From the NCBI GenBank assembly GCA_024137785.1, contig JAHRHZ010000266.1, positions 62,001-126,000 on the forward strand: 64,000 bases of DNA, read 5' to 3'. Origin of the DNA: Ginglymostoma cirratum. Its lineage: Eukaryota. The stretch's first letter is position 1. Each line of letters begins with the position of its first letter. Shown piece by piece: positions 7,413-58,139 of the stretch. The translations under genes were made by a program, and so were the position numbers. The notes beneath the pieces were generated by a model that was not told the origin of the DNA, did no database searches, and saw nothing but the letters and a program-made list of their open reading frames with translations.

Positions 7413-7684
7413 TTAACAGGACTTAAATTGAGGGTCAAGTTACTTGCTTTCAAAAACATCCAGTAATCCTTCAGCAATCCCTGGCTTTCCAACAATTCTG
7501 ATACATTTAAGCCCGCAATAAAAAATACAGAACGATAAAAAGGCACGGACTTTACAAAAAATAAAAATACATTTGAAGAAGAAAATTTCAAGTTTAGGCA
7601 TTGGTGAATCCCACAATGTTCCTTGAATTTGTTCTGGGAAATAGTACAGCTCGGTTGCACAGATTCAGTACTTTCTGTGAACGC

Positions 7685-7728
7685 TCACTCCTTATGTTTG
7701 CTCACAACAGCTGCATAGGTTACATCTG
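7685..7728 (-). CDS. Terminal coding exon with canonical ITIM (VTYAAV) and stop
   Basis: Acceptor tttctatatctttctag (NAGNAG tagcag). Reads (A)DVTYAAVVSKHKE*, where VxYxxV fits the ITIM consensus. Conserved in the paralog at 61432-61475. Confidence 0.75.
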
Positions 7729-8165: not shown

Positions 8166-8635
8166 AGTCCAACAGTCATTCTCATTCTCTTCTGACTGTG
8201 ATACATAGAAAGAGAGAGACAATCTGCTTGACTGATAGTCAAGTATCATCCAATGGAATAGTGAAGAATCTGCTTGTTTTCTGATTAGTGCAGTAAGGTA
8301 ACACCCCAATGGAGATGGACAGTTTGACTGACCAATGAAAGCAGCATTGCAGTGAGGGGATGGAGCTTGAAGGTGATGTGATCAAATCTCCATGCTCCAC
8401 CCAGCCCCAAATGGCACTGTTCCACACATGGGAGAATGGGCTCCAGGGGCTGGGAAAGGAGAAAAGATTAGGATTTGGATTTTGAAAAGAAAAAAACTGA
8501 CTCACTCTCTTCTGAATCAGCAACTGAGACAGTCTTGCCATCTTGAACTGAAAGAGAATATTCTGTTGGTGAGGAGGATGTATTTTAAATGTTGAGAAAC
8601 ATCACTATGTGGAAAAAATATTTGTAGATGGTTAC

Positions 8636-8689
8636 CTTTTCTCTTGCTATCAAACGTGATGCTGGCGTAGGTACAGGAATCAGGCTGAG
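8636..8689 (-). CDS. Cytoplasmic exon with ITIM-like motif CTYASI
   Basis: 54-bp phase-1/1 exon, acceptor tttgtattacag, donor AAG|GTAACC. Reads (A)QPDSCTYASITFDSKRK. Splice sites are conserved in the paralog at 62087-62139. Confidence 0.7.
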
Positions 8690-21990: not shown

Positions 21991-22264
21991 ATAGTTTTAG
22001 AACAATGCAGACTCAATGAGCCAAAGGGCCTTATTCTGTGCTGTAGAATTCTATAACTCAGTGTAAAAGTCTGCCCCTGAATATCTATCCAGGAACCCCA
22101 CAGTCTTGATGCTTCACACTCTCTCTGTTACAGTGTGGAAAATGGACATTAATTGGTCAGTTAAAGTATAATCAGTACCTGGAGCAGGCGGCTGCTGGGC
22201 ATTATCAGTCCTGGGAATGCTGGACAAACCTGGTTCATTCCTGAAAAACACACAAAGGAACATT

Positions 22265-23952: not shown

Positions 23953-23992
23953 CTCTTCGAAAGTGAGGTCTTTTCGATTTGCTGAGAACCCC
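23953..23992 (-). CDS. Putative cytoplasmic exon 1
   Basis: Strong acceptor ctcttttttgtctctttag, 40 bp, phase 1 to phase 2, reading (G)GSQQIEKTSLSK. The donor GTAGTG is only moderate. Confidence 0.5.
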
Positions 23993-26355: not shown

Positions 26356-26466
26356 CTCCTTTCTTCCTGAAGATAATGAAGATGATGACAATGATGAAGA
26401 TGATGAGCAGGAGGGCAAGCAATGGGATGACCAGCAGATATACAGTGGGGAACTCAGTCCTCTTGG
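26356..26466 (-). CDS. Transmembrane exon of the Ig receptor (uncharged TM)
   Basis: 111-bp phase-1/1 exon, acceptor atttttacag, donor GTGGGT. Reads (A)KRTEFPTVYLLVIPLLALLLIIFIIVIIFIIFRKKG: a long hydrophobic run followed by the basic stop-transfer RKK, in frame with V2b. Confidence 0.85.
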
Positions 26467-28700: not shown

Positions 28701-28722
28701 CCCGGCAAAAAAGATTTCTTAC

Positions 28723-29070
28723 CATATACCTGAAGCCGAGTCTCTTTCTGGATCAGATACTGAGCATTGGGTTCTGAGATGTATTCCACCTGACACAGGT
28801 AAGTGTGATTGTCCCTCACACTCAGCTGGTCAATCCTGGTCGAGGCATTTCCCTCCTCTGGGTTCCCGATGAGCTCGTACCGATTTCTACCGCTTACAGT
28901 TGTCCAATTTCCCTGTGATTGGACTGTAAATGTTACAATGTGTTGGTAGGGCTTCTTCCTCATCCAGGTAACAGTGGACAGGGTGTCGGAGTCTCTGGTC
29001 ATGAAGATACAGGGTAAAGTAACTGAATCTCCATCTATTCCACTCACCACTAAGACATTTCCCTGCGCAG
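28723..29070 (-). CDS. Ig V-set exon V2b (second V-type domain)
   Basis: Open 348-bp phase-1/1 exon, acceptor ctttccccag, donor GTAAGA. Encodes AQGNVLVVSGIDGDSVTLPC...VTW...DNHTYLCQVEY...TRLQVY. Paralog of 43039-43386. Confidence 0.9.
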
Positions 29071-31019
29071 CTGGGGAAAGGACGAAGATCAGAATGGATG
29101 AGGTCAGTATGCAGAAGTTGTCAATTCAATTTGTTACATTTCTTTCAACTTCACGATAAAATGAGTAATTAAATGCGTCACTTATATTTATCACAGTTCT
29201 GGACTAGCCTGTTGTAGTCTCCTAAAGTAATCACCCTGATGAATATTACTCCCTCTCCACCCCCTCATTTTGAGTTACAGGTGCTCATTCACAAGATAAT
29301 TATGGATCAGAAAATGTACTGAACCCACCTGAATTCATTTATCCTGAGCCCAACACCCTCCTTCTCAGCTTTGCTAAATGTGTTTGTTATTTGTTCCCCA
29401 GCCGTACACTTCACACTGTGCCCCTTCAATCTGTCCAGGAATATCATTCCTGATTGAATATACGCCTGTGCGAAGGAGAATATTCCTGATATTAACCTGA
29501 ACATAACCTTTCACTCATTCCAAACTGTGACCTGTGCCATGAATACAGTTTGATTGAGGTCAATTGAAGTCTATAAGAAGATTTCCTGCAGCACCAACCA
29601 TGTCTTTGAATGTTGGGTGGTGGGGGAGAGGAATTAGCCTCATGCTGTACCATCTTTAAAACTTAATCATCTTCTGAAAGAGGGAATCACTCCTCATCTC
29701 CATCCTATTTTGAAAGGAGTTCCAAATTCACCCACTTCCTCTCAGCATCTACACTGTCAAGACCACTCAGGATCTTACAAGTTTCAATAAAGTCACCTCT
29801 TAATCTTCAGCAACGAGTAACCCTTGTTTGACTCTTAACCAATCAGAGTAGGCAGCAGCCACACTCTGATATTCTCAGCCAATGGGAAACAGGGAAGTGG
29901 TTTTTCACATTTTCTCAACCAATGAGACCTGAAGTTCTACAATGTGCTCACACAATGATGGATTAGAAGGTCCTTGCCCAATCTTGTCCTCAACCTCTGC
30001 CAATCACTGGACTGACATCAAGAAGGAGGTCATTTTCCCCATTGGGTCCTGGCTAGCTCCATGTGGAACAATCCAGGCAAGACCCACTCAATAGCTCGAT
30101 TCCCCCCCAACCCCTACCAATTTATTTCTTTCAAGTGTTTGTCTGTTTTTCGTTTGAAATCAATGACTATTCCCATATGCACCTCTGTTGATGTTGGTGA
30201 CTGTCAGCCATCAGCACTCTATGTGTAAAAAATTCACATTGCCTCTTCATCTCTGGCGCAAAATGTAAGGTCTGCATCCTTGTCCCAACAGCTAATGGAT
30301 GGACCTTTTGCTTGTCCTACTTTCTCTTCACCTGTCCCTATCTTCTTCACCTCAATCTAATCTCCCCTCAATCTCCATAGCTCCAAGGAGAACGACCTTT
30401 GCTTCTCAAACCTTGTAACTAAAATCAGTCTCCAATCTCCAACCCAAAAAATTTCAAGACCTCCCTGGAATACTTCAGGTAAATCTGCACTCTCTCACGG
30501 ACTTTCACATTCTTCCCAATGTGTGGTGACTGATCTGGATGCACAGTCGGAGCATTACCAATGTTTACGATTGTTAGGCTCCTTGACTGAAAGGTCAATA
30601 ATGATGGGGCATAATTTAATGTGAAAGCTTGGGAGACTGGAAGGGATTTGAGGAAACTTTTTTTTCAACAAGCAGGGAGTGGGAATTTGAAATGCACTGC
30701 TGGGAGGGTAATAGAGGCAAAAGCACTGAAATATTTTAAAACTACTTGGATGAGCAGCTGACCCATCATAAGATTCAAGGCTATGGGCCAAATGCTGGAA
30801 AGTGGGAGTAGTACAGATTTAGCCCAATTGGTTTGTTGGTGTAGATTCAATGGGCTCAAGGGCATCTTCTGTCCTGTTTGATTCTCTGATGCTGTGGTTC
30901 AGCATACCACGTGGGTGAATGGAAGGAACTAAAAGGGGAAGAAGATGATGGTGGGGGTAATCCTTTGGGTCCATTAAAGTAGCTATATGTTGGGACAGAA
31001 GGGTTCAGAAAAGACAGAC

Positions 31020-33210
31020 AAGGGGGTTACCAGGGTTGGAGGGTTTGAATATAGAGAGAGGCCGAATAGTCTGGGGTATTTTCCCTGGACCATGGAGATT
31101 GACAGGTGACCTTATAGAAGTTTATAAAATCATGACGGGCATGGATAGGATGAATAGGCAAGGCCTTTTGCCCAGGGTAGGGGAGTCAAAATGACAGGAC
31201 ATCGGTTTAAGGTGAGAGGGGAAAGATTTAAAAGGGACCATTTTCACGCAGAGGGTGCGACGTGTGTGGAATGAACTAGCAGATGACAAGGTGGAGGCTG
31301 GCACAATTACAATATTTAAAAGGCATCTTGATGCCTGCATGAATGGGAGGGTTTAGGGTGATATGTTCCAATTGCTGGCAAATGGGATTAGATTAATTTA
31401 GGAGATCTGGTCGGCATGGATGAGTTGGGCTGAAGAGTGTGTTTCCATGCTATACTTATCTATAGCTCTAATAGCTATCAGAAGACAAAAACTGAGAGGG
31501 AAACTGGCTGACTTACAGACCAATTAGTCCCCTGGACGTCTCTGGATGCTTCGAGGATATTAAAGGAAGTAGCTACAGAGACAATAACTGCACATGTACT
31601 AATCTTCCAAGAATCTTTAGATTCTGGATAGGTCCCAGATAATTAAAAATCTCCCAATATAACACCTTTGTCTTTCAAGGAAAGGAGACAAAAAAAGGTA
31701 ACCATAGGCAGTTCAGTTAACAATTGTTATTGGGAAAATGTTAAAGTATAATTAAACATGTAATCATTGTGCATTTGTAAATGTATAATATAATCAAAAA
31801 GAGTCAACATGGCTTCATGAAGGGGAAATCATGCCTGACAAATTTACTTGAATTATTTGAAGTGGTAACATGCTGGATTAATAAAGGGGAATCAGTGGAT
31901 GTTGTATATTTTGATTTTCAAAAGACATTTCACAAGGTGCTACAAATTAAGTTCCTTATTAAGATTAGGTTCCCTAGTGCTGGTGGCAGTATAATCAGCA
32001 TGGATGGAGGATTGACTAACTCATAGAAAGCAGAAAGTTGGGATAACGGCATTGATTTCAGGCTGGTAACCTGTAATTAGTGGAGTGCCACAGGGATCTG
32101 TTTTGGGGTCACATTTATTTACAATTTATGTTAATTTCTTGGATGAGATACTTGAACGTGTTGTAGCTCAGTTTGCTGATGATAGGTGAAAAGGCAATTG
32201 ATGAGGAAGAAACAAAGAAGCTCCAGAGAGATAAAGAGATGTTAAATCAGTGGGCAAAAACTTGGCAGTTGGAATAAAATGTGAAAAATGTTGGGTGATA
32301 CATTTTGGTCGGAAGAATAGAGGAGCTGAATATTATTGAAACAGAGAAAACCTGTAGAATGTTATAGAACAGAGGGATTTGGAAGGTTCATGAATCATAA
32401 AAACATTCAAGCTCAGCAGGTAGTAGGGAAGGCAAATGAAAAGTTGACCTTTATTTCAAAGAGAACGGAATATAAAGCTGGGGAGGTTTTGCCAGGTACT
32501 AGTCAGTTCACAGCTGGAATACTGTAAATAGTTTTGGTCTCTTATCAAAGGAAAGTTAAACTGACATTGGAAGCAGTCCAGAGAAGGTTCAAATAGTTGA
32601 TGCGAGGTATGGAGGGTCTGTCTTATGGGCAGCTGTTGAGTAGATTGGGCCAGTACTTGTTGGAATATAGAAGAATGAAAGGTGACCTTATTGAAACACA
32701 GAAGATTCTTCGGGTGCTTTACAGGAGAGAAGCAGAATGTGTGTTTCTCCTTGTGGGTGAGTGTAGAACCAAACGGCATCATCTCAGAAAAAGGGGTTAC
32801 ACATTTAAGATGAGAGGAATGTCTTCTCTTCAATGTGTTTGAATCCAGATAACAAGGTGTAGAGCTGGATGAACACAGCAGGTCAGGCAGCATCAGAGCT
32901 TTCCTGCTCCTCTGGTGCTGCCTAGCCTGCTGTGTTCTTCCACCTCTACACCTTGTTATCTCAGATTCCAGCATCAGCAGTTCCCATTATCTCTTTTTGA
33001 ATCCAGACTTCATTTCTGCAGAGACCAGTTAAGGTTGGGTCACTAAGCATAGTCAAGCTGAGATTAACAAATTTGTAATCAGCAAGGTGATCAAGGGCTG
33101 TAAAGTAAAAGCAGGAAAATGGAATTGAAGTTATATCTCAGTCATGATGTCATTGAAATGTGGAATGGACACAAGGGGCGAAATGCCTTATTCTATTCCT
33201 ATGTCTTATG
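31020..33210 (+). mobile_element. Cluster of degenerate CR1 LINE fragments
   Basis: SQHGFMKGKSCLTNLLELFE...DVVYFDFQK peptide and CR1 3' ends at about 31470 and 33210. Confidence 0.85.
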
Positions 33211-33779
33211 GTCTACCTGCCTCAATTCTCCATATCTCTCATTTCCTTTTCCAACCACTCTCTCAATATGTCCTGACATCTTCAAAAATGATGGACACAA
33301 ATGGCCAACTTCCTTTATCCAGACCAATCCTTTAAGACCATGACATTGACTCCATATGGCCCATAGGGAGATGGAAATAGTGGGGATCGTGGAGCATGGA
33401 TCCTTTGTGATGTTTTCTCTGTCGCTGTCCCAGAACACTGCAGCCAGTTTGAATGTGACAAATTACTGTGTCAGTGAAGAAAACAGGAGGTTTCAGAGAG
33501 TGTGAGATAACAAGGTGTAGAGCTGGATGAACACAGCAGGCCAAGCAGCATTAGCGGAGCAGGAAAGCTGACGTTTTGGTCTGGACCCTTCTTTCAGAGA
33601 GTGCGATGGAATGGTCTTTAAATCCCAGCATCATCTCTCTCTCTCCTTCTCACTGTCTCCTGCCTGAGACCCAGTGAAAAAGCTCAAGAGAAAGAGCCAA
33701 CCCGAGAGCTCCCTGACCAGGGGAACCTGTTCCCATTGAGCTATCAGGGCAGTGACACCATCCGGACGTTGTTCCTTAC

Positions 33780-34163
33780 CTTGTACTTCCAGCATTGTTG
33801 GAGACCATGTTCGAAAACTGTCAATATTGAGTTCCACACGACAAAGGTAGGAACCAGCATCCTCCCAGCTCAGTCTGTCCATCATTAGTGAGACATCTTT
33901 GTTGCTGAGGTTCCCCACGAATCTGAATCGATTCTCACCATCCTGCTGTTTCACATTCTCACACAGCTCACCCTGGGAATGGTCTAGACCAGGAAATGCA
34001 CATCTAAAGATTACTCCTGTGTCAGATTTAATCCATATCACGGAGCCAGTGAGTGTGAGATTAGTGTCTGGGTGGGTGAAGCTGCAGGGTAAGACAGCGG
34101 TTCTTCCTTCCTCTGCCCTCACACCATCCGCGACTGTCATTGACCAATCATTTTCAGAAAACT
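33780..34163 (-). CDS. Ig V-set exon V1b, Siglec-15-like sialic-acid-binding-type domain
   Basis: Open 384-bp phase-1/1 exon, acceptor ccccttgcag, donor GTAAGG. Encodes FSENDWSMTVADGVRAEEGRTAVLPCSFTHP...IFRC...ELC...RFRFVGNLSNKDVSL...DAGSYLCRVEL...LEVQ. Same length as, and paralogous to, 47839-48222. Confidence 0.9.
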
Positions 34164-34289
34164 CTGCAAGGGGAAAGCAAAAAAGAGAGGATATGAACAC
34201 AGCACAGGAACAGACATCAGTGTTTGGAACAGAAACTTTGAGACTCAATCCTGAGTTTGATATTTAGTGAGAATAGGGTTAGAAATTAT

Positions 34290-34710
34290 AATGAGAGGCA
34301 GTGAACTAACGGTATTACCCATTCATGTGCCATCCAATACACTGGGGACAGAGTTTCACTTTCCACCATGGCCGCTGCTGGAATTTCAATTCAGTTATTT
34401 CATCTGGAATTAAACACTAGTGGAGTTGTTGGTTGTTTCGCTGAGCTGGAAGGCAGATGAAATGTTTGCATGAAAGCCAGCCAGTGAACCAACTAATAAC
34501 TCCAGCTACAAGCCAAGCTACAGATCTTCCCTAAAACTGTAAACACTAGTCGAATGGTCTCCATGAAACCATCATCAATTGTTGGAAAAACAATCTGGTT
34601 CACTGATGCTCTTTAGGGAAGGGAAATGCCATCCTTATCCAGTATGGCCTACATGTGACTCCACGTCCCACAGCAACAGATTTGACTCTAATATACCCTC
34701 AGAATTGGCC
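34290..34710 (+). mobile_element. SacSINE1/DeuSINE-like SINE with an internal insertion
   Basis: Contains the agggaagggaaatgccatccttatccagtatggcctacatgtgactcc central domain. Confidence 0.65.
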
Positions 34711-34764
34711 AGGGAAAACTCTGAGTTGCGCAAAACCATTCCAAAATGTAAAAGGAATGTTATA

Positions 34765-36005
34765 GAGTCATAGAGATGTACAGCACACAAACAGACCCTT
34801 CAGTCGAACTCGTCCATGCCGATCAGATATCCGAAATCAAACCAGTCCCATGTGCCAGCATTTAGCCCATTTCCTTCTAATCTCTGTCTCGCCCATTGCC
34901 ATCTAGAGTCCTTTTAAATGCTGACATTGTGCCAGCCTCCACCACTTCCTCTGGCAGTTCATTCCAACACTCAGTGTGAAAAAGATGTCATTTAAGTGCC
35001 CTTTAAATCTTTACTCTCCCACCCTAAACCCAAGCCCTCCAGATGTGGACTCCGCTACCCTGGGGAAAAGACCTTGACTATTCAGCCTATCAATGCCCCT
35101 CATGATTTTATAAACTTCTATAAGGTCACCCATCAACCTCCAATGCTCAAGGGAAAATAACCCCAACTTGTTCAGCTTCTCCCTATAGCTCAATCCTTCC
35201 AATCCTGGCAACATGCTTGTAAATTTTTTCTGAACTCTTGAATTTCACAACATCTTTCCTATAGCAGGGAGACAAGAAGTGAATGTAGTATTCCAAAAGT
35301 GGCCTAACCAGTGTCCTAGACAGCTGCAGCATGACTAACCAATTCCGATACTCATTGCACTGACCAATAAAGCAAGTGTACCAAATGCCTTCTTCACTAC
35401 CCTGTATACCTGTGACTCCACTTGCAAAGAATTTTAAACCTGCACTCCAACATGTCTTTGTTGGTAACAGTGCCCAGGAGCTTATCATTAAGTGTATAAG
35501 TGTTGCACTGATTTGCATTTCCAAAATGCATCACCTCACATTTCTCTAAATTAAACTCCATCTGCCATTTCTCAGCACATTGGCCTGTCTGATCAATGTC
35601 CCATTGTACTGTGAGATAAACTTCTTCGTTGTCCACTACACCACCAATATTGGTGTCATCTGCAAACTTACCAACCATACCGACGTTATTCACATCCACA
35701 TCATTTAGATAAATGACAATAAGCAATGGATCAAGCACCGATCCTTGCGGCACACCGCCGGAAACAGGCCTCGAGTCCGAAAAGCAATCCTGCTTCACCA
35801 CCCTCTGTCTCCTTCCATCGAGTCAGTAATGCATCCAAATGGCTGGTTCCCCCTGTATTCCATGTGATCTAATCTTGCTAACTAGTCTATAATGTGGAAA
35901 ATTTTCAAATGCCTTAGTGAAGTCCACTTACGTAATGTCCATTTCTCTCCATTCTTCAATCATCTTTGTCACTTCTTCAAAAAACTCCATCAAATTAATG
36001 AGTCA
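34765..36005 (-). mobile_element. CR1 LINE 3' portion
   Basis: GVPQGSVLDPLL, KFADDT and LVRPLLEY peptides plus a 3' tail. Confidence 0.9.
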
Positions 36006-37899
36006 TGTTGTGTCTGAACAGGAAATAGTGTGCCGATAACCATGTCCTGTTGCTCCACACATCACCAGGAACTGTACAAATGTACAACAATCCCAGTGAG
36101 ATCACCCTTGACAGACAGTTACTCAGGACAGAAGTGAACCACACCAGGATTCTTCAGTAACGGTTAAGATAGTTCCATTAGCCAAAAAATCCAATGTGGA
36201 GAGCAGTGAAAAGAAAGGATTCCTGATTAATANNNNNNNNNNNNNNNNNNNNNNNNNNNNNNNNNNNNNNNNNNNNNNNNNNNNNNNNNNNNNNNNNNNN
36301 NNNNNNNNNNNNNNNNNNNNNNNNNNNNNNNNNNNNNNNNNNNNNNNNNNNNNNNNNNNNNNNNNNNNNNNNNNNNNNNNNNAGTCCGTGTGAAGGCAAA
36401 GTCCCACCTTCACATTGAGGGTACATATCCATCATGCATGGCACTAGCCCGGTGTTAAATGGGACTGACTTTGAACAGATCTAACAACTCAAGACCAGGA
36501 TCCATGAGACACTGTGGACTATCAGTCTAGCAGAATTGGGCTCCAACACAATCTGTCAACTCATGGCCTGGTATTTTCCCCCATTGAAACAGTAACATCA
36601 AGTCAGGCGTTCAACTCTGGTTCAATGAACAATGTGGGAGGAAATGCCAGGAACAATACCAGCAAAGCTGAAAATGAGATGTCAGCTACAAAACAGGGCT
36701 ACTTCCATGTTAAACAGCATAAACAGCGTGGGATAAGTGATTCCACTGCCAGTGCATCAGACGTAAGTTCAGCAGACCTGCCACTTGCAGTAACCAACTA
36801 ACAGGAGAATGAGTCCCCACAAATATCTCCATCCACAACGAGAGGGAGCACAGCTCAGCAGTTCAAAAGACAGGGCTGAAGCATTCACAACTAATTTGAC
36901 CGAGAAGTGCTTCGTGATGATTCATCTCAGTCTTCTCCAGAGGTCCCCAGCATCATAGATGACTCTTTACCCAGAAGGCAAACATAATTTGGTGGGTCTG
37001 CAGTCACACATAGGTAGGGCTAGGAACAGAAATCATGGGACCTAGTGTTGTTCCTCATGCAGCCCCTGACCCATCGTCACCAGCCCACACTCGCTTCCAC
37101 TGACCTGGCACAGTGAACCCCATTATTGAAATCTGATGTGCCAGCCACCCCCGTCCTTGCCCTTTATGTGGACCAGACCAAGCAAGGATGGTGGAGAGTG
37201 GAGACAAAAACAGAAATTGCCAGAAAAAATCAGCAGGTCTGGCAGCATTTGTGGACAGAAAGGAGAGTTAATATTTTGGGTCCAGTGACACTGCTTCAGA
37301 AACAAAATGATCGAAAATGGTGGACTGAGAGTAATGTGGATCTTGCAGCTGCTCTGGAGATTCAGGTTCATTTCCAGATTTAGTTTGAGATTTCTTATAT
37401 TTATTAAATTTCGGTAGGGTATGATTTTATTTTGATTCATTGTTAGTTCTTTTACAGGCAAAAACAAAAAAAAACAAAAAATTGACAATTTTTTTTTAAC
37501 AAACGGAGTTCAGTCAATGGACCTTTTGGATCTGCCTGCATGTGGACTGCTCAGTGTTTTTCCTCTGTAACATTGTAAGAGATTTTTTTAACATTGCTAA
37601 AGTGACTTTTTTAAAATTGCAAATTTTAAAGTGTTTTGTTTTAAATGGAGTTGTGTTTACAGAGCTTTGGGAAAGGCTTACACTCTGATGGCTCTGGGGT
37701 GGGATTTCTTTTAATCAGAAGATGGAAAGCTGTTTGCTCGGCCACTTCAGCTGGAGTCATTTTTTTTTTATTTGATCGTTCAGCAAACTGGTTGATTTTA
37801 TTGAAGATTTATACCTCATTTTATTTTATTTCTTATTTCTTACTCTTTGGGTAAGGCAAAACAGTTTGTTTTAGAGATAAGATGCTATTGTAAGCTACT

Positions 37900-40800
37900 T
37901 CTTTTTAAGCCTAATGACATTGAAGGCAGACAAGACGCAAGAATGAGATGGTGAGTAGATTTAGAGAAGTGATTACACAGCAAGATCAGTCAGATCGATG
38001 GATGACTGTCAGGAAAGTTAAGAAGACAGTTCAGAAATCTCCCGTGGCTATTTCTCTCTCAAACAGATTCTTATTTTTGGGTACTGTTGAAAGGATAGTC
38101 TCTCAGAGGAGAATAGACGAAACAGTCAGATTGTGGGGACTAAGAATGAAGCTAAAATGAAGCGGGGTTTGACAAAATTTAAAAGAATAATTGTTGGAGG
38201 TGACTGTCCTATCAAGGGCACAGTCAGGGGATTCTACTGCAGTGAGCACGAATCTAGCATAGTATGCTGCCTTTCTGGTGCCAGGATTCAGAATGTTGCA
38301 AAACATTTGAAGTATATTGTTAAAGGGGAGAGTGAGAAACTGAAGGTTATTGTACAGATTGGTAGGAACAACATTGTTAAGGAAAAGATTTACAAAGTGA
38401 ATATGGAGAGAGGGGGAGATAAAAGGTACTGCAGATGCTGGAGAATCCGAGATAACAAGCATGGGGCTGGATGAACACAGCAGGTCAAGCAGCATCATAG
38501 GAGCAGGAAAACTCGACGTTTCGGGCCTAAACCCTTCATCAGAAATGGGGGAGGGGAAGAGGGTTCTGAAATAAATAGGGAGAGAGGGGGGGAGGCGGAT
38601 AGAAGATGGATAGAGGAGAGGATAGGTGGAGAGGAGGCAGACANNNNNNNNNNNNNNNNNNNNNNNNNNNNNNNNNNNNNNNNNNNNNNNNNNNNNNNNN
38701 NNNNNNNNNNNNNNNNNNNNNNNNNNNNNNNNNNNNNNNNNNNNNNNNNNNNNNNNNNNNNNNNNNNNNNNNNNNNNNNNNNNNNNNNNNNNNNNNNNNN
38801 NNNNNNNNNNNNNNNNNNNNNNNNNNNNNNNNNNNNNNNNNNNNNNNNNNNNNNNNNNNNNNNNNNNNNNNNNNNNNNNNNNNNNNNNNNNNNNNNNNNN
38901 NNNNNNNNNNNNNNNNNNNNNNNNNNNNNNNNNNNNNNNNNNNNNNNNNNNNNNNNNNNNNNNNNNNNNNNNNNNNNNNNNNNNNNNNNNNNNNNNNNNN
39001 NNNNNNNNNNNNNNNNNNNNNNNNNNNNNNNNNNNNNNNNNNNCAGCCCCATGCTTGTTATCTCGGATTCTCCAGCATCTGCAGTACCTTTTATCTCAGA
39101 TACAAAGTGAATATGACAGGTTGTGAAGAAGATTAAAAAAATGTTCCTCAAAAGTACTAAATCTCTGATTTACTCCTGGTGCCTGGCTCAGGTGAGGAAT
39201 GAAAAAACTAAAGGAGGCAAATCAATGACTGAAAAGGTAGTGTAATGAACAGAGTTTCAGATTCTTGAAGCTCTCGGATCATTTCTGGAACAGAAAAGAC
39301 CTGTTCAAAAAGGATGGGTTTTACCTGTACTGGATTAGAGAACAATGGATGGGTAATGATATTGTGGTTCTAGTTAAGATTAAAAAAGTGTCATATATAA
39401 GACACAAACAACTGGGTTTAAATTAATATCTTGAACAGTGTAATGAGTGTAGGGGCATTATTAACAGCGAGGTTAGGAATTCAAAGAAAGGATATGACTT
39501 AGTCTTGGCAAATAAGGTTAAGGTTAATCCAAAGGGATTCTACAGGTACATTAAGAGCAAGACAGCAACTTGAGAAGAAAGTAGGGCCCTTTAAAGATCA
39601 AAGAGGTCATCTTTGTGTTCAACTTCAGGAGTTGGGGAGAGATACTCAGTGAATATTTTGCATTAATTTTTTTCCTGTGGAAAAAGAAATGGAGGCTAGA
39701 GAATTCTGGGAAAAAAAATTGATGTTTTGAAAATAGTTTGCATTGCTGAAGAGTAAGTGCTGGAGGTCTGAGAAAATACAAATCTCTGAGATCTGATCCA
39801 GTGTACACCAAAGCTTTGTGGGAAGTTACGGAAGAAATTAGCGGGCCACTTGCAGAAATATTTGTACCATTTACAAATACAAGTGAGATGCTGAATGTCT
39901 GGAGAGTGGCTAACATGGTGCCTTTGTTTAAGAATAGACTTAAGGAGAGGCGTAGTAACTATAGACTTGTGAGTCCGACTTCGGTGGAGGGTATGTTGTT
40001 GGAAGTGATTCCGACAGTTAGGAGTTCTCTGCGTTCGGAGAAGCAAGGAATGACGAGGGATAGCCACCATAGCTTTGTACAAGGGAAATTGTGTCTCACA
40101 AGCTTGATTAAGTTTTTTGTGGATGTGACCAAGAAGATTGATGAGGGCTGAATGGTAGACATTGCTAACTTTGACTTTGGTAAATCCTTTGAAAAGATTC
40201 TGTATGGTCGACTAATTAGTCAAGTTAACTCACATGCAATTCAGGGTTGCCAAGTGGCTGCAAAATTGACTTAATCGCAGGAGACAGAAAGTGATGGTGG
40301 AGGGATTTTTTTGGACTCGAGGCCCATGACTAATGGTGTTCCACAGGGATTGGTGCTGGGTCCACTTTTGTTTGTCCTTTACATAAGTGATTTAGATGAG
40401 AAAAAACAAAGCATGATTTGTAAGTTTGTGGATGACATCAAGATTTGCAGTACGTTGGGCAGTGAAGAAGATTATCTGAGGTGACAAGGAGACCTTGATC
40501 AATTGGGTCAATGAGCTGAACAGTGAGGAATGCAGTTGAATTCAAATAAATGTGAGGTGTTGTACTTTTGGAAAACAAATAAAGGCAAGACTTTTCAATT
40601 CAGAGTAGGGCCTTGGGTTTTGTTGTAGAGCAGAGAGACACCTCGGCTTTCAGGTTCATAATGTTTTGAAGCTTGCATCATCTTTAAATACGATGGTTAA
40701 GAAGGTGTTTAGCACACTTGCCTTCATCGCTCAGACCTTGAGGGTAAGAGTTGGGATGTTATGTTGAGTTTGCACAGGATGTGAGTGAGGCCTCTACTGG

Positions 40801-41310
40801 GGTACTGTGTCCAGTTCTGGTCGCCTTATTATAGGAAGGACATTATTAAGCTGGAGAGGGTTCAATAGAGATTTATCAGGATGTTGCTGGGAAAGGAGGG
40901 CTTTAGTTATTAGGCAAAGCTGTATAGACTGGGACTTCTCTCAGTGGAGTGTTCAAGGTTAAGAGGTGACCTTACAGAAGTTTATGAAATCATGACGTGT
41001 ATAGATCAAGTGAATGGCTGGTGTATTTTCCCTAGGTTATGGGATTTCAAGACCGGGGGCATAGTTTTAAGGTGAGAGCAGAAAGATTTTGAAAAGACAT
41101 GAGGGCAAATGTTTTCTACATTGACTTTAGTTTGTGTGTGAATGAATATCCAGAGGATGTGGTGGATGTGGTTATAGTTGCAATGTTTAAAAGATAAGTA
41201 CATGAATAAGAAATGTTTGGAGCAATATGGAAGAAGCACAGGCAGGTGGGACTAGTTTAGTTTGGGATTATGGACCGGTTGAACCAAAGGGTCTGTTTCC
41301 CTGCTGGATG
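37900..41310 (+). mobile_element. Old CR1 LINE (ORF1 esterase remnant + RT), internally deleted, interrupted at 38406-39100
   Basis: IVGGDC..VCCLSGARIQ..VQIGRNN (SGNH-like) peptide and WRVANMVPLFK..NYRLVS RT peptide. Confidence 0.85.
38406..39100. mobile_element. Penelope-terminus element with inverted ends and 15-bp TSD (interior in an N gap)
   Basis: TSD tacaaagtgaatatg at 38391-38405 and 39101-39115. 38416-38469 is inverted at 39044-39097. Confidence 0.75.
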
Positions 41311-42407
41311 TCTCGATAAATTTATAACTAGTTCTAGCTGGGAAAATTTCAGTATAAATGCTGAAGATCGGGTGGAGGGAGGGGACAGGAGTGCATGCTC
41401 AGTAGAGATGGAAACCAGAGAGAGAGAAAAATAATTGTACAGACAAAGGAATGGAAAAAGGTCAGCCTGGGAGAATGAATAGCTGCAGAAGGGGGCCATT
41501 AGTCACCGACAATGGATTGTTTGTAGTCACAGCCCATGTGATGACAGGGCCTGGTGTGTTGGGTTTGGGAGAACGAGAAAGGGGAAGGAGCTCAAGCCTT
41601 AAAATTATTGAACACAATATTGAGTCCAGAAGGCCACAGGATCCCCACACAGCGGTGTGTTGAAATGGCAGGCAACTGGAAGCACAGGGTCATTTTTGTG
41701 GATAGAATATATGTATTCTGCAAAGCAGTCTGTGTTTTATCTTCCCAATATAGAAGTAGAAGTGAATTGCACAGAGTTAGAGAGTTTTTTGGTGGAACAT
41801 CTCTGAGCCAGTTGTGATGGAGAGAGAGAGCTCAAGATATTGCCATGCATCGCCGTATGCACAGAGAGTGGAAGGCAGATTTCATTTCCTCACCATATTC
41901 TTACCAGACCATGGGGCTGATTTCTCATTAGGGGCTGACGACTGGTGGCCATTTAACCTGAAGGCCACTACATCTCAGGCGAAGGAAGAGGTTGAGAAGA
42001 ACAGTTCTTCATTGTAACAGCCTGTGTGGGAATTGAACGGTTGGCATCACAACACTTTGGAAACCAGTCGTCCAGCCAACTGAGCTAAACCAACCCCCAG
42101 ATCCCCTAAATGGCTTGACTGAATCAGATGGGCTTTTCCAGTTATAATCTATGGTCACATGTGGCCATTAGATTAATTTCTCATTTAAATTCCAGACATT
42201 TAAAAATTACATTCAAGTTTCACCTTCTGCTCTTGCAAGGTTTCAACCCATGGCCCAGTGACAGCAGCAGTATACCGCCACCACCCTTTATAACCCATGT
42301 GTGGCTGCGTCTTTAGGAAAGGTCCTAGATGGGCGTGAAACCTCTCCCAGATGGACGTGAAACCTCTCCCAGATGGACACTAGAGGAATGTACTTACACT
42401 GAACTAT

Positions 42408-42640
42408 CTCATAGAATCCCTACAGTGTGGAAACAGGCCCTTCGGCCCAACAAGTCCATACCAACCCTAAAAGCATCCTACCCAGACCCATCCCCCCATC
42501 ACCCAAATAATCCACACCATCCTGAACACTGTTGACAATTTGGCCTATACACCTAGCCTGCACGTCTTTTGGACTGTGGGTTGAAACCGGAGCACCTGGA
42601 GGAAACCCACGCAGACACTGGGAGAACGTGCAAACTATGC
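42408..42640 (-). mobile_element. HE1-like SINE, 5'-truncated
   Basis: Homologous to 7857-8070. Absent from the paralogous intron at about 27955. Confidence 0.8.
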
Positions 42641-43038
42641 CTGATGAAGGTATGAGCATTTTCATTGTAAACAAAAGGGACACATTAGATTGTTGCACCT
42701 TGCTGCTCGAGGAGATGATCTCAACGTCAGTATAACTTTGGGTTGTTTGGAGATTGAACTGAATATTCTGAGTGCGTCAATGTCTTTCAACACTGACATC
42801 AGAATGCACGTAAAAGGATCAGCACATCAAATTACAGTAAATATATTACAAACTCAGAAAGCTGGAAATTTGAAATAAAAATCAAAATACTGCCAATACT
42901 CAGCAGGCAACCATCACCTGTGGAAAGAAACAGGGTTAACATTTTAGTTCAATGACCTTTCACCAGAAAATCAAATCACAAAACATCCACAGGATATGTC
43001 ACACACTCAGATTGAAGAATGAGTGAATGGCTGCTTAC

Positions 43039-43386
43039 CATGTACCTGCAGCCGAGTTTCTTTCTGGATCAGATACTGGTAACTGAGTCTTGATCTGTAT
43101 TCCACCTGACACAGGTAAGTGTGATTGTCCCTCACACTCAGCTGGTTTATCCTGGTCGAGGCGTTTCCCTCCTCTGGGTTCCCGATGAGCTCGTACCGAT
43201 TTCCACCGTTTACAGCTGTCCAATTTCCCTGTGACTGGGCTGTAAATGTAATGATGTGTTGGTAGGGCTCCTTCCTCAACCAGGTAACAGCGGCAAGTTT
43301 GGAGTAGTACCTAATCCTGAAGGTACAGGGTAAAGTGACTGAATCTCCCTCTGTCCCACTCACCACTGAAACTTCTCCCTGAGCAG
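43039..43386 (-). CDS. Ig V-set exon V2a (second V-type domain)
   Basis: Open 348-bp phase-1/1 exon, acceptor ttcctcag, donor GTAAGC. Encodes AQGEVSVVSGTEGDSVTLPC...VTW...RYELIGNPEEGNASTRINQLSVRDNHTYLCQVEY...TRLQVH, with canonical B-strand Cys, C-strand Trp and DxxxYxC. Confidence 0.9.
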
Positions 43387-43924
43387 CTGAGGAAAGGGCA
43401 AACATCAGAATGGATGAGGTCAGTGGGCAGAAATTTTGGATTCAATTTGCTGCATTCTTTTCAACTTCATAATAAAATGAACAGTTAACAACTTTCCTCA
43501 TTTCTTTCATGGGTCTGTCCAAGACCTTCCCCTACAAAAGTCACCCTGATCAAAATGTCTCTCCACCTCTCGATTTGAGAACCTTGAACACAAGGTATTT
43601 ACAGATCAGGAAGTCCATTGAATACTTTGGAATTCATTCATGCAGAACCCTCCATCAATTCCTCAAAGTTAATATTGTTTAAAAAAAGTCAAAAATTACA
43701 CAGGTTTCCTCCATCACTCTGCCCAACAATCACATTCCAAGTATTGGCCCCACTCTGAGTGAAGGAGTACTCCCTGGCATCATTCCTAATGTGACTCCAA
43801 GTTCAAGTGAAGGCAAGCGCCCGGCCGAGGGCTGTAAAGAACCTGATTGGCAGTCGGGGTGAAGATTTGCATTGGCGCAGTCACCACTACCAAACAGTGG
43901 TTTGTGGAGGGAGTGGAATCTGTA

Positions 43925-46560
43925 CTGAAAAACAAAAAAAGCTGGAGCTTGCAGCAGGTCAGGCAGCATCCATGGACAGAGAGCAAACGACAGTTTCGAG
44001 TCTAGGTGACTCTTCATCAGAGCTGATAATGAAGTGTGGAGGGGCAAGCACTTATGCAATTTTGTGGGGGTGGGGTGCTGGGGGAGAGACGCTGCTGATA
44101 GTGCTGATTGTGTGATCGGAATGTGAGAATGGCAGAATAATGGTGTATCTAACAGCCAAACAGTACAGATGGTCCCACTGGCGTGGGGAGAGGGGAAATG
44201 GTAACAGAAAATGCAACAAGTAAACTGACAGGAAGGGAATAAATGGGAAGGAGTTCACAATCTGAAGGTGTTGAACGGAATATTAAGACCAGAAGTTTGG
44301 AAAGTGCTCAGTCTGAAGATGAGTTTTGTTCCTCCAATTTGGTCTGTGAATCACTGGGACATTGCAGTGAGCCGAGGACAGAAAAGTGGGCATACGAGCA
44401 AGATGCTGTGTTAAAATGACCAATTACAGGATGATTGGGGTCATGCTTGTGCACAGACCAGAGGTGTTCTGTAAAGCGGTCTCCAAGTCTGTGTTTGATT
44501 TCTCCAATGGAGATTAAGCCACGTAGGGTGCAATGAAAGCACTCAACTAGATTGGAGGAGGTACAGGTGAAATGCTGCCTCACCTTGAAAGACTGTTTAG
44601 GCCCTTGGATGGTGAGCAGCGAGGAGGCAAAGGGCCAGGTGTTGCACCTCCTGCAGTTACGGAAGGTGCTGTGGGAAGGGTTTGGTATTGTTGGCCAATG
44701 AGGATGGACCAGGGTGTCCTGGATGGAACAGGCCCTGTGAAATGGAGACAGAGGAGGCAGGGGAAGGTGTGTTTAGTGGTGGCGTTCTGCCACAGTTGTT
44801 TGAAATGGTGGAGGATGATCCTTTGAATGCGAAGCCATGTGGGATGAAAAGTAGTATACGGGGCACCTGATCACACTATTGTGAGTTATGGAAGGGCAGG
44901 GCAGAAGCACAGGTGACAGGTCAGATGTGGTTCAGGTCTCTGTCACCCACAATGGGTGGGAAACTATAGGTAAGGCAGAAGAAACCTATGTCAGAAGCAC
45001 TGTTTTTGAAGGTGGCATCATCTGATCAGATCCGATGGAGGCGAAGGAACTGGGAGATTGGAAGGGAATCCTTACAGGAAATTGGGTGCGAATAGCTACA
45101 GTGAAGATAGTTATGGGAGTGAGTGGCTTTGCAGTGGGTGGCGGTGGACAGTTAATCCTGCAAGATGGAGACAGAGAGGTCAGGGAGAGGAAGGAAAGTG
45201 TCAGAGATGCACCAGGTGAAAGATGTAGAGGGGTGGAGGTTGGAAACAAAATTAACAAACTTTTTAAAGTCCAGGCAAAAGTATGAAGCAGCACCAAAGC
45301 AGCTGTCACTGTACCAAAAAAAGTGTTATGGGAGGGGACCAGTGTAGGCCTGGAACGAGGATTGTTCCACATACTCCGTAGAAAGACAGGCATAACTGGC
45401 ACTCATATGATTGCCCATAGTCACTCCTTTGACTTGGCAGAAGTGAGATGAATTAAAGGAGAAATTGTTCATTGACAGAACAAGTTTAGCCAAGCAGAGG
45501 ACAGAAGTGCTGGATAGGATTGTTCAGAAGTGTGGTCGAGTAAGAAGCTGAGAGCTCTTAAACCATCCTTGTGGGGAACGGAGGAATAGGGGAATTGGAT
45601 ATCTATGGTGAAGAGGAGGCAGTTAGGGCCAGGCAACTGGAAATTGTCAATATGGCAGAGGGCATCAGAGGAATTGTGGATGAAGGTGGGCAGGTTGGGA
45701 CAAATGCAGGAAGGATGGAGTCAAGGTGGGAGGAAATGAGCTCAGTGGGTCAGGAACAAGTTGCTATGATGGGTGTACCAGGACAGTCCAGAGTGTGGAT
45801 TTTGTGAAGGAGCTAGAAGTGGGGTTGTCTGGGGTTGGGAGACTATTAGGTTAGACGCAGTGGCGGGGAAATCTCTGGTGGTAATGAAGTTGTTGGCAGT
45901 CTTGGCAACAATAGCTTGATGTTAGGATGTGGGGTATTGGTCCACGGGGTGGTAGGATGAAGCGTCCGAGAGTTGGCATTGAGCCTCAGCAAGTTAAAGA
46001 TCAGTGCGCCAAACAACAATGGTACCACCCTCGTTGGTGGGATTAATGACAAAGTTGGGGTTGGACCTGAGAGAGCAAAGTGCGGCAATTTCAGAAGGGG
46101 ACAGCTTAGAGTGGGCAAGAGGATCGGAGAAACTGAGACAACTGATATCATATTGGCAGTATGCAACGAAGAACTCGAGGGCAGGTAGGAGGCCAGAGGA
46201 AGGGGCCCAAGTGGAATGTGAATACTGTAGTGGTGTGAAGTGATCCAATGATTGGTAGGGGGGGGGGACGAATTACTGCCTGAAGGAGTTGGCACAGTGA
46301 TGGAGGTGGCGGACAAACAGGTCAACATCACAGTGATCCCAAAATTCATTCAGGTGGGTGCATATGGATGGGAAGCTGAGTCATTTGCTGAAGACAGTAC
46401 GTTCAGCCTCAGAGATGGGAAGGTCATGAGGGATGGTAAAAATATAGCAAGGGCTGGGGTTGAGGGGACGGACCTCTGGGGACAGAAAGAGATGGCATCC
46501 AAGGGCTAGGAAGAGGTTGGTGCTCAGGGAAGTTAAGGGATTGACTCAGAGGGACAAGAG
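43925..46560 (-). mobile_element. Penelope-like retroelement (degenerate RT + GIY-YIG endonuclease)
   Basis: Peptides LSPSEIAALCSLRSNPNFVINPTNEGGTIVVW (N-terminal of the PLE RT) and HFTCTSSNLV..C....IGEIKHRLGDRFTEH..HFN (GIY-YIG). Terminal repeat with a hammerhead-like core at about 43988-44024. Confidence 0.9.
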
Positions 46561-46589
46561 GGAACAGGGTACCCAGAAAGGAGAGGCAG

Positions 46590-46740
46590 TAGTAGTTTTT
46601 GGAGGTCAGTCATCTCAGCTCCAGGAAATCTCTGCAAGAGTCCCTCAGGGGACTGTCCCAGGCCCAACCATCTTCAACTGCTTCATCAATGACCTTCCCT
46701 CCATCGTAAGGTCAGAAGTGGGCATGGATGTTCGCTGATG
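46590..46740 (+). mobile_element. Non-LTR RT fragment (CR1/L2 clade)
   Basis: VPQGTVPGPTIFNCFINDLPSIV peptide. Confidence 0.75.
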
Positions 46741-47838
46741 AACATGGGCTGCAGGAGAACATCACCACCTACAGGCTCCCCTTCAAGACACTCACCATCC
46801 TGATTTGGAAATATTTCACCATTCCTTCAGTGTCAGTGGGACAGAGATCTGGAATTCCTTCGCCAGCTGCATCATGAGTGTCCCTGCACCTGAGGGAATG
46901 CAGCAGTTCAAGGGGGCAATTCACCATTCCCTTCTCCAGGGCTATTTGGAATTGTCAATAAAGGCTGACTGACTCTGTAAACATCTAAATTATAAATATA
47001 GTTCCAAGTCAGGATGGTATGTATTTGCTGCCAAGTGGGGAGTATTCCAAGCCTGTGACCTGCTCTTGTAGTGACAGTCTCATTTACACTCCTGGGCTCA
47101 CTCCTTGTCCACAACTGAGTGAGCCATTGAGGGGAGTTAAGAATGAATCACATGACTGTCGGTCAGGAGACACATGTCTATCAAGCCAGGTGAGGATGGC
47201 AAATTTCCCTCCTAAAGGACATGAATGTTTTTCAAAAGTGTTGGTTTACCGTCAAGAGCAGTATTCAGTTCTTGATATTTTCAAATTAAAATTTCAAAAT
47301 TAGCCATGGGTTGGAACCTATTCCCCAGGACATGAGCCTCTAGAGAAGGCAGCTCCCCTCGTTTTCTCCTCAGCCAATGGATACATCATATAGCAATAGT
47401 GAGAATCTCAGCCAATGCAAGCTTTCTTCACCCTGAGAAGTACTCATCCAATGATGACTCAGGAGGTACAAGGTCTCTCTTGTCCTCATCCAATGGTGAT
47501 AGAGCAGGGATTTCATTAGTGGGGATTTTGGAGCTTGGATCCTCAGTCATGTTTTCTCTGTTCTCTATCTCAGAATACTGAAGCCAGTTTGAACAAAATT
47601 AATGAGCGAGTGTGAGATACTGTGGGAGGTTTCAGAGATGGTGCTGGAATAGTCTATAAAGCCCAGCCTCCCCTCTTTCTCTCTCTCACTCTCTCGCACT
47701 TCCCTTCTCACTGCCTCCTGCGTCAAACCACCTGAAAGAGCACAGGACAAGTAGCCAACCGAAGAGCTCCCTGACCAGGTGGAGCCTGTCCCCATAGAGC
47801 TATCAGGGCAGCGACACCATCCAGATATTGTTCCTCAC

Positions 47839-48222
47839 CTTCCACTTCCAGCCTTGTTGGAGACCGTGTTTGAAAACTGCCAGAACTGAGTTCCACACGA
47901 CAGCGATAGAAACCAGCATCCTCCTGCTTCAGTCCCTCCATCATTATTGAGACATCTTTGTTGCTGAGGTTCCCCACGAATCTGAATTGATTCCCACCAT
48001 CCCGCTGTCTCATATTCTCGCACAGCTCACCCTGGGAATGGTCTGGACCAGGATGTGTACAGTCAAAGATAACACCTTTGTTCTGTTTCTTCCATATCAC
48101 GGAGCCGGTGACTGTGAGATCAGTGTCTGGGTGGGTGAAGCTGCAGGGTAAGACAGCAAAGCCTCCTTTCTCAGCCCTCACAGTGTTCGCAACTTTAATG
48201 GACCAACCGTTTGCAGAATACT
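47839..48222 (-). CDS. Ig V-set exon V1a, Siglec-15-like sialic-acid-binding-type domain
   Basis: Open 384-bp phase-1/phase-1 exon between acceptor ctcctcacag and donor GTGAGG. Encodes YSANGWSIKVANTVRAEKGGFAVLPCSFTHP...VIW...IFDC...ELC...FRFVGNLSNKDVSI...DAGFYRCRVEL...TRLEVE. The motif order (WSxxV, AVLPCxFTHP, FxC..ELC, FR.GN..D.SL, YxCRVE) matches Siglec-15 V-set as recalled; no search was run. Confidence 0.9.
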
Positions 48223-48484
48223 CTGTGAGGAGGCAGAGAGAGAAAGAGAGAGAGGATATGATACTTTTTTGGCTCCAATTGTGAGGTTTGTAACAAGAGG
48301 AAACATTCAATCTGTATCCACTCTGTCGAAAGATTGCACAATTTGAAATATCTCTGTTCAAATATCCCTTTATTTTTGGTGCTTATTTGAAAGGAGTACA
48401 TTTATTTACTGGGAGGTGATGTTTATCATAAATGTAACTTCTATTACTGCTGCTTCAAACAGCGTCATAAGTTCTGGAACTAAG

Positions 48485-56480: not shown

Positions 56481-58139
56481 AGAGAGGTATTATGATAGGA
56501 TAGGACAAATAAGAATATGTTTTTCATCAGTAGAGGGGTCAATGAGCAGGAAATATAGATTTCAGGAAAGAGATAGAAGATAAAAGGGGAGTTAAGGAGG
56601 GTTGAGGAGAATCTGTTTTGCACAGAGGATGATAAGAGTCTGGCACTCACTGCCTGAAAGGCCGGTTGAGTTCGAAACACGAGTAACGTTTGACCAGTAT
56701 TCAAGTCTCCATCTGCATGTCTATTTGCTCTTCAGTAGCCTGCACCTCTACTGCCTCATTTCTTTTTAATTTTTAAAACTTCCCTCCAATTGAATCCGTC
56801 CTCCCACCCCCACCCTTATACCACTTATTAGTTTAAAGCCCTCAATAAGTTGGTAAAAAGGCATATGGACCAAGTGCTGCAAAATGAGAGAGGTATAGTC
56901 AGATCTTTGTTCTCTGACACAAACATGATGAGCCAATGACCTCTTTCTATGTTGTAAATTGCTAAGAGTTCATGAATCTACAATGAAGCCTTCAAGGAAT
57001 GAATCTTCACACTTGTAATAGTTAATTGTAAAACCGAAAGAAATGCGGATGCTGCAAATCAGGAACAAAAACAGAAAGTGCTGGAAAAGCTCCCCAGGTC
57101 TGTCAGCATCTGTGAAGAAAAAAATCAGAGTTAACATTTCGGGCTGGTGCCCCTTCCTCAGAACCTCGGGTCAATGGGCCCAAAACTTGAACTCTGACCT
57201 TTCCTCACAGATGCTGCCAGAACTGCTGAGTTTTCCCAGCAACTTCTGTTTTTATTCCTGAACAGTTAATTGTCACTGGTTGACTGGCAGTAATTCAGAC
57301 TCGTCTTATTGATAAAACTGCATTGAGGCTGAAATAGACAAAATGTAACTTTCTATGCTGAAATCAGTTTGTCTCAAAGAATGTCATAAATTCACATCAT
57401 GCAGTAAATCTCAATGGTCAGCCAACAGCAGCGTTTTGTTGCATCAAGTAGCAAATTTTGGATTTCTGTGTTCTGAATTTACAGTATTATTTGTAAGAAA
57501 TAACAGCAAACGCCTTTTGATTCATCATTGTTACTTCTCAGTCAGTTATGCCCAATGTCTCTCTGAAACCTGGTTGTGCCTGCAGTATTCCGTATCTGCC
57601 CTGACTCTCTGGAAGTTTACNNNNNNNNNNNNNNNNNNNNNNNNNNNNNNNNNNNNNNNNNNNNNNNNNNNNNNNNNNNNNNNNNNNNNNNNNNNNNNNN
57701 NNNNNNNNNNNNNNNNNNNNNNNNNNNNNNNNNNNNNNNNNNNNNNNNNNNNNNNNNNNNNNNNNNNNNNNNNNNNNNNNNNNNNNNNNNNNNNNNNNNN
57801 NNNNNNNNNNNNNNNNNNNNNNNNNNNNNNNNNNNNNNNNNNNNNNNNNNNNNNNNNNNNNNNNNNNNNNNNNNNNNNNNNNNNNNNNNNNNNNNNNNNN
57901 NNNNNNNNNNNNNNNNNNNNNNNNNNNNNNNNNNNNNNNNNNNNNNNNNNNNNNNNNNNNNNNNNNNNNNNNNNNNNNNNNNNNNNNNNNNNNNNNNNNN
58001 NNNNNNNNNNNNNNNNNNNNGACCCTTCTTCAGAAAATGGGTCTGAAGAAGGGTCCAGACCCGAAACATCAGCTTTCCTGCTCCTCTGATGCTGCTTGGC
58101 CTGCTGTGTTCATCCAGCTCTACACCTCGTTATCTCTTA

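What the first reader, a model, noticed from the sequence alone, without database searches (positions are those of the whole stretch)
28723..48222. One four-V receptor (V1-V2-V1-V2) or two genes? Internal duplication of the V pair within a single repeat unit of about 57 kb
Seen: the locus period defined by the duplicated 3' ends (about 1 vs 57180) holds two V1-V2 pairs but only one recognisable TM exon and one ITIM end. All four V exons are open and phase 1/1, so V2a can splice in frame to V1b. Intron sequence downstream of V2 is also duplicated (about 42100-43000 and 37020-37140 vs 27460-28330). Inference: either a single receptor with two Arg-bearing domains, which would be unusual because most Siglecs have one N-terminal V-set, or a TM-less or secreted upstream gene. 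The missing exons could also be hidden in the N gaps (36233-36382, 38644-39043).
Basis: partly seen in the sequence, partly recalled or inferred. Interest (0 to 1): 0.75.

Follow-up and report, generated by a model that had tools for sequence, protein, structure and literature searches.

The report
Shark Siglec-like receptor with doubled ectodomain
A shark immune-receptor gene carries its pair of outer antibody-like domains twice; it likely makes one membrane protein with four such domains, predicted to sense sialic acid and damp immune cells, a layout that automatic annotation already predicts in related sharks.

Summary
The four V exons are real: open, AG/GT, phase 1/1. No leader, TM or tail exon lies in 34164-43038, while the same searches find those exons elsewhere in the window. 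One gene is likely (about 0.85): leader (probably in N gap 57621-58020), V1a-V2a-V1b-V2b, uncharged TM, tail with two tyrosine motifs; 604 aa open from V1a to stop. V1b's three closest relatives in other carpet sharks also follow a V2 exon, not a leader. Complete four- and six-V models are already in RefSeq. RNA contigs show the V1b-V2b splice. The decisive V2a-V1b junction was not displayed, but one contig leaves the V2a donor with 46 unplaced letters, exactly what that splice predicts. V1 domains are Siglec-15-like (Trp, both disulfides, Arg kept); V2 domains lack the Arg. With no C2 domain and no TM lysine this is not Siglec-15; sialic acid binding is untested. Correction: the '1 vs 57180' duplication is intron 1, not a 3' end. 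Precedents: Siglec-12, 4Ig B7-H3. Nine literature searches found no description of this shark family. Modest interest.

The parts
57621..58020 (-). N gap inferred to hide the leader (signal-peptide) exon and promoter of this gene
   Evidence: 57212-57620 matches 28-437 at 91%; in that paralogue the leader lies at 763-698, 260 nt further on. Inferred, not seen.
47839..48222 (-). V1a exon, Siglec-15-type V-set, Arg kept (YRCRVE), 4 Cys
   Evidence: covered by contigs in runs X1, X2, X3
43039..43386 (-). V2a exon, V-set without the Arg (YLCQVE), 2 Cys
   Evidence: contigs in X1 and X2; X1 record 5 leaves the genome exactly at the donor 43039
34164..43038 (-). V2a-V1b intron, 8875 nt with 550 N; starts with a copy of the V2-TM intron that stops about 970 nt short of where the TM acceptor would be; rest largely repeats
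   Evidence: no leader, TM or tail hit
38644..39043 (.). N gap inside one repeat element, between 54-nt perfect inverted arms 38416-38469 and 39044-39097
36233..36382 (.). 150-N gap; flanks have no similarity to TM or tail flanks
33780..34163 (-). V1b exon, Siglec-15-type V-set, Arg kept (YLCRVE), 4 Cys
   Evidence: spliced to V2b in X1 record 2 and X2 record 9
28723..29070 (-). V2b exon, V-set without the Arg
26356..26466 (-). Transmembrane exon, no charged residue in the hydrophobic span
   Evidence: top hydrophobic 19-mer of the minus strand, matched by 22 homologues; AG/GT
23953..23992 (-). Cytoplasmic exon T1
   Evidence: read from the sequence; AG/GT and in frame
22179..22240 (-). Cytoplasmic exon T2
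   Evidence: 21 homologues hit it
8636..8689 (-). Cytoplasmic exon with ITIM-like motif CTYASI
8506..8547 (-). Cytoplasmic exon T6
7684..7728 (-). Last coding exon with ITIM VTYAAV and stop

Best explanation
This is likely one gene for a type I membrane receptor with four V-set domains (V1-V2-V1-V2), an uncharged TM segment and two tyrosine motifs, predicted to bind sialic acid through its two Arg-bearing V1 domains and to send an inhibitory signal. Shown: exon anatomy, open 604-aa frame from V1a to stop, absence of leader/TM/tail in the assembled 8.3 kb of the V2a-V1b intron, expression of all four exons, the V1b-V2b splice. Inferred: the V2a-V1b splice (about 0.85); origin by unequal crossover in the tandem array or internal duplication, with one break in a post-V2 intron and one in a leader-V1 intron, tolerated because all exons are phase 1/1; sialic acid binding (about 0.55); SHP-type phosphatase recruitment (ITIM consensus and pathway recalled, about 0.7). 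The second pair would lengthen the ectodomain and add a second, divergent binding site.
For: No leader, TM or tail match in 34164-43038 by blastn with flanks, leader HMM, short-word tblastn with 30 homologue tails, or hydrophobicity (best 2.2 vs 3.7 for the true TM), while the same tests find the leader, TM, T2 and end exons elsewhere. An intact unit needs 18.8 kb from TM to stop, 6.9 kb to the next leader and about 9.7 kb from leader to V1; the intron is 8.9 kb with 550 N. V1b groups with zebra shark P0001 domain 3, bamboo shark P0007 and epaulette shark P0050 (95/84); in 3 of 3 it follows a V2 exon, not a leader. Complete leader-4V-TM-tail models exist (P0037, P0041, P0003, P0042), with isoforms skipping one V1 (P0038, P0051), and a six-V model (P0044). 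X1 record 5 is 87 nt of V2a with 0 mismatches (V2b differs at 12 of these 87) plus 46 unplaced letters; a splice to 34163 ending in the usual 30-nt contig overlap with record 3 predicts exactly 46. In X2 the four exons have similar contig depth, 8.7-14 (the tool calls depth a poor measure). Best solved relative of V1b is Siglec-15, E 3e-14.
Against: The V2a-V1b junction was not displayed: the lay was swamped by repeats and showed 15 joints with 262 hidden. The 46 letters were never seen, and only 1 of the 7 other neighbouring contig pairs overlaps by exactly 30, so this is a likelihood argument. Gap sizes are not reliable: the 400-N gap at 57621 stands where the paralogue has 1.7 kb. The relatives' proteins are automatic models whose RNA support I could not see; none of V1b's three closest relatives is complete (P0001 lacks a TM, P0007 and P0050 start inside V2). 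The leader itself is unseen. Raw-read run X22 had depth under 2 on the exon bins and showed no junction. The Tyr87 equivalent of Siglec-15 is absent from V1b; CTYASI departs from the recalled ITIM consensus at position -2. The AlphaFold model was poor (pLDDT 62).
Confidence: 0.75

Rival explanations
1. One transcription unit, but the main products are shorter: leader-V1a-V2a spliced straight to the TM exon, or a secreted V1a-V2a form ending in the intron, with the four-V form minor.
For: All exons are phase 1/1, so skipping is in frame; relatives have skipped or truncated models (P0038, P0051, P0011, P0005). The TM exon lay outside the stretch laid, so the 46 letters of record 5 could be TM sequence.
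Against: The 46-nt fit to V1b; similar depth of all four exons in X2; V1b-V2b spliced contigs in two runs, which need an upstream leader. Record 5 does not read into the intron.
Confidence: 0.12
2. Two ordinary two-V genes; the TM, tail, intergenic region and second leader are lost in a mis-sized gap or a collapsed part of the array.
For: Two N gaps in the interval; nominal gap sizes understate at least once; V1a and V1b are only 69% identical and are not sisters in the tree.
Against: Some 35 kb and about seven exons would have to be hidden; the 400-N gap sits inside one repeat; intron homology towards the TM stops 609 nt before the 150-N gap; V1b's relatives in three chromosome-scale assemblies also lack a leader.
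Confidence: 0.06
3. The four-V architecture is right but the V1 domains bind a protein or microbial ligand, not sialic acid; the Arg is a relic of Siglec-15 ancestry.
For: V1a/V1b dN/dS is 0.99, as for ligand-driven or relaxed divergence; 10 of 84 family V1 domains have another residue at the Arg and 4 could not be parsed; TIM-3 is the second-best solved relative.
Against: Arg is kept in 70 of 84 V1 and 0 of 78 V2 domains; Trp44, both disulfides and Arg143 of Siglec-15 align.
Confidence: 0.3

Closest known systems
Siglec-15 (PDB 7ZOZ)
   Same: V1 aligns with E 3e-14 and keeps Trp44, C64-C142, C95-C104 and Arg143 equivalents (features from PMC10264397 passages). V2 also has it as best hit.
   Different: Siglec-15 is V-C2 with a TM lysine for DAP12. 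This gene is V-V-V-V, has an uncharged TM and tyrosine motifs, and sits in a tandem array.
Siglec-12 / CD33-related Siglecs
   Same: Two V-set domains in one receptor (PMC6288428 passage); clustered, fast-changing family with ITIM and charged-TM members.
   Different: Siglec-12's V-sets are followed by C2 domains; here Arg-bearing V1s alternate with Arg-less V2s and there is no C2. The V1 type is Siglec-15-like, CD33 scoring far lower (E 2e-6).
4Ig B7-H3 (CD276)
   Same: A two-Ig cassette doubled by tandem exon duplication, with 2Ig and 4Ig forms (PMC3172298, abstract).
   Different: B7-H3 is V-C, single copy and a ligand; only the mechanism is shared.
RefSeq elasmobranch models XP_059501001.1, XP_072449476.1, XP_060690354.1, XP_060703220.1
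   Same: Same family and the same V1-V2-V1-V2 layout (six V in the last).
   Different: Automatic models named 'uncharacterized' or 'polymeric immunoglobulin receptor-like'; none is the window's own protein (best V1b identity 84%). The window's upstream pair is only 64-67% identical to the zebra shark's upstream pair.

Membership tests
Siglec family | N-terminal V-set domain with the essential F-strand Arg | tested here: met
   CRVE in V1a and V1b aligns with Siglec-15 C142-R143
Siglec family | V-set followed by C2-set domain(s) | tested here: not met
   All four exons score as V-set; homologue searches place the TM exon directly after V2b
Siglec family | Arg-dependent sialic acid binding | not testable with these tools
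   needs a binding assay
Siglec-15 | Disulfides C64-C142 and C95-C104 in the V domain | tested here: met
   four Cys at aligned positions 26, 54, 67, 107 in V1a and V1b; bonds themselves inferred
Siglec-15 | TM lysine for DAP12/DAP10 | tested here: not met
   TM span has no charged residue; feature from PMC6941304 passage
Siglec-15 | Same three-dimensional binding site | tested here: inconclusive
   model pLDDT 62; 7ZOZ ranked first but E 1.7e-3, TM-score 0.32
Siglec-15 | Orthology by synteny | not testable with these tools
   no genome held for the window
Inhibitory ITIM receptors | Cytoplasmic ITIM in frame with the TM | tested here: met
   VTYAAV (fits the recalled consensus) and CTYASI (ITIM-like) in the open frame
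Inhibitory ITIM receptors | Phosphatase recruitment and inhibition | not testable with these tools
   needs a cell assay
Elasmobranch V1-V2 Siglec-15-like array (database family) | V1-V2 cassette, TM and CTYASI/VTYAAV tail, nested among family members | tested here: met
   both V1 rows lie in a 98/92 clade and both V2 rows in a 100/99 clade of carpet-shark domains
pIgR / CD300-like (a RefSeq label) | pIgR as closest solved relative | tested here: not met
   Siglec-15 outranks pIgR for V2a (4e-11 vs 1e-7); pIgR is absent from the 23 V1b hits

The most novel reading that the evidence does not exclude
Sharks and rays have their own expanded array of paired, Siglec-15-derived sialic acid receptors, inhibitory (ITIM) and activating (TM lysine), built only of V domains, in which repeated duplication and skipping of a V1-V2 cassette sets one, two or three sialic acid sites per chain: an independent counterpart of the mammalian CD33-related Siglec cluster.
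Probability: 0.35. Interest if true: 0.6.

Novelty: new variant of a known kind. Interest (0 to 1): 0.38.

Why it matters
The single gene is a modest result: cassette doubling is a known route and related sharks have the same predicted layout. The family matters more. If V1 binds sialic acid, elasmobranchs evolved a clustered, paired Siglec system from the Siglec-15 branch, which in mammals is one activating gene, and natural two-, four- and six-V forms would let one test how valency and reach change glycan self-recognition.

Full report
Observation. The window holds, on the minus strand, one full unit of a tandem array of Ig-superfamily receptor genes, with the tail of the preceding gene (61206-62167) and the leader of the next (763-698). 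Four V-set exons are open, AG/GT and phase 1/1: V1a 48222-47839, V2a 43386-43039, V1b 34163-33780, V2b 29070-28723. V1a/V1b are 69% and V2a/V2b 76.5% identical in protein, V1 to V2 about 28%. Chained to the TM exon and five tail exons they give 604 residues with a single stop at the end and the motifs CTYASI and VTYAAV. Homologues place the window among carpet sharks; none of the annotated proteins is its own (best 84%) and the species was not identified.

Is a second gene end hidden between V2a and V1b? Four tests found nothing in 34164-43038: blastn with the window's own leader, TM and tail exons plus flanks, a leader HMM from 28 homologues whose only hit is 763-698, short-word tblastn with 30 homologue tails, and a hydrophobicity scan (best 2.2 against 3.7 for the real TM). 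The intron begins as a copy of the V2-TM intron, and that homology ends at 36992, about 970 nt short of the TM acceptor's position and 609 nt before the 150-N gap. At the other end, homology to the V1a upstream intron reaches only about 35 nt beyond the acceptor. The 400-N gap lies between 54-nt perfect inverted arms of one repeat. An intact unit spends about 35 kb between TM and the next V1. Against this, nominal gap sizes are loose: the 400-N gap at 57621 stands where the paralogue has 1.7 kb.

Relatives. Three homologue searches and a cluster look-up gave 82 proteins; the 76 held were parsed. The family's basic unit is leader-V1-V2-TM-tail. 17 of 76 records, from 5 species and including isoforms and near-duplicates, have three or more V domains: V1-V2-V1-V2 in zebra, bamboo and epaulette sharks and, partially, in an electric ray; six V in epaulette shark; V1-V2-V2-V2 in Heptranchias. 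V1b forms a supported group (95/84) with zebra shark P0001 domain 3, P0007 and P0050, and in 3 of 3 it follows a V2 exon, so its leaderless, internal position likely predates these species. These are automatic models; none of the three is complete, and I could not see their RNA support. The bamboo and epaulette complete four-V models sit in another clade of V1s (97/96), which suggests more than one origin of the layout.

RNA. Four of 24 listed runs were laid on 28500-48400. Displayed contigs cover all four exons in X1 and X2 and three in X3. X1 record 2 and X2 record 9 join 33780 to 29070 exactly. X1 record 5 (133 nt) matches the last 87 nt of V2a without mismatch, leaves at the donor 43039, and has 46 letters not displayed. 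Record 3 of the same run starts at 34147; directly adjacent contigs overlap by 30 nt (records 6 and 7), so a contig spliced to 34163 would carry 46 letters of V1b. This fits exactly, but only 1 of 7 other neighbouring pairs is directly adjacent, the letters were not shown, and the TM exon was outside the stretch. I take it as good, not final, support. The raw-read run added nothing.

How it likely works. V1b's best solved relative is Siglec-15 (E 3e-14); Trp44, C64-C142, C95-C104 and Arg143, described in PMC10264397 (passages), have aligned equivalents, Tyr87 does not. The Arg is present in 70 of 84 family V1 domains and 0 of 78 V2 domains (newt, elephant shark and colugo rows dropped). The TM is uncharged and the tail has one ITIM and one ITIM-like motif (consensus recalled). 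So the likely product is an inhibitory receptor with two sialic acid sites separated by V2 spacers; binding and signalling are inferred. V1a/V1b dN/dS is 0.99 and V2a/V2b 0.55 (simple pairwise count), so the two sites may differ in specificity or be under relaxed constraint. Origin is likely unequal crossover or internal duplication with breaks in two phase-1 introns; AU tests could not separate these or show a later head swap.

Known and new. It is not Siglec-15 (no C2 domain, no TM lysine; PMC6941304 passages) and fails the V-plus-C2 definition of a Siglec, though it likely works like one. Two V-sets are known in Siglec-12 (PMC6288428 passages) and cassette doubling in 4Ig B7-H3 (PMC3172298 abstract and outline). 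Searches (family and organism terms; precedents) showed, from listings and abstract starts, no paper on this shark family; the whale shark genome paper mentions Siglecs once (PMC8455134, one passage) and its Supplementary file 9, which I did not open, may list the family. The library lacks most subscription journals.

Verdict. One four-V receptor, likely (0.85 for the splice, 0.75 for the whole reading); a variant of a known kind whose layout is already in databases. Interest 0.38; the family-level reading would merit 0.6 at probability 0.35.

Noticed in passing
window 394-655 and 1423-1684: A 262-nt, 100% inverted repeat flanks the next gene's leader exon (763-698); the outer copy interrupts a LINE-like repeat. 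The paralogous position upstream is where the N gap 57621-58020 begins. Very recent templated insertion or assembly artefact.
   Followed up: partly
window 62140-62087: The preceding paralogue's tail exon has a stop where this gene has the Tyr of CTYASI, with a shifted continuation: a truncated or dead tail, while its downstream exons remain 81-89% alike.
   Followed up: partly
P0019, P0023, P0025, P0026, P0074: Family members with a lysine inside the predicted TM and no tyrosine motifs, candidates for activating partners of the ITIM members.
   Followed up: no
P0072, P0073: Newt proteins with two tandem Arg-bearing V1-type domains and similar tail motifs (CTYADI, VTYAVV): the family, or a parallel one, may reach tetrapods.
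   Followed up: no
window 22178-8691: This gene seems to lack the two extra tail exons (one with a third tyrosine motif) of many paralogues; the 13.5-kb intron is filled with LINE copies and has a 10-N gap at 16181.
   Followed up: partly
P0005, P0039, P0047-P0049: Several near-identical bamboo shark models are leader-V1-V2-V1 ending in intron read-through: secreted three-V forms or incomplete models of four-V genes.
   Followed up: no
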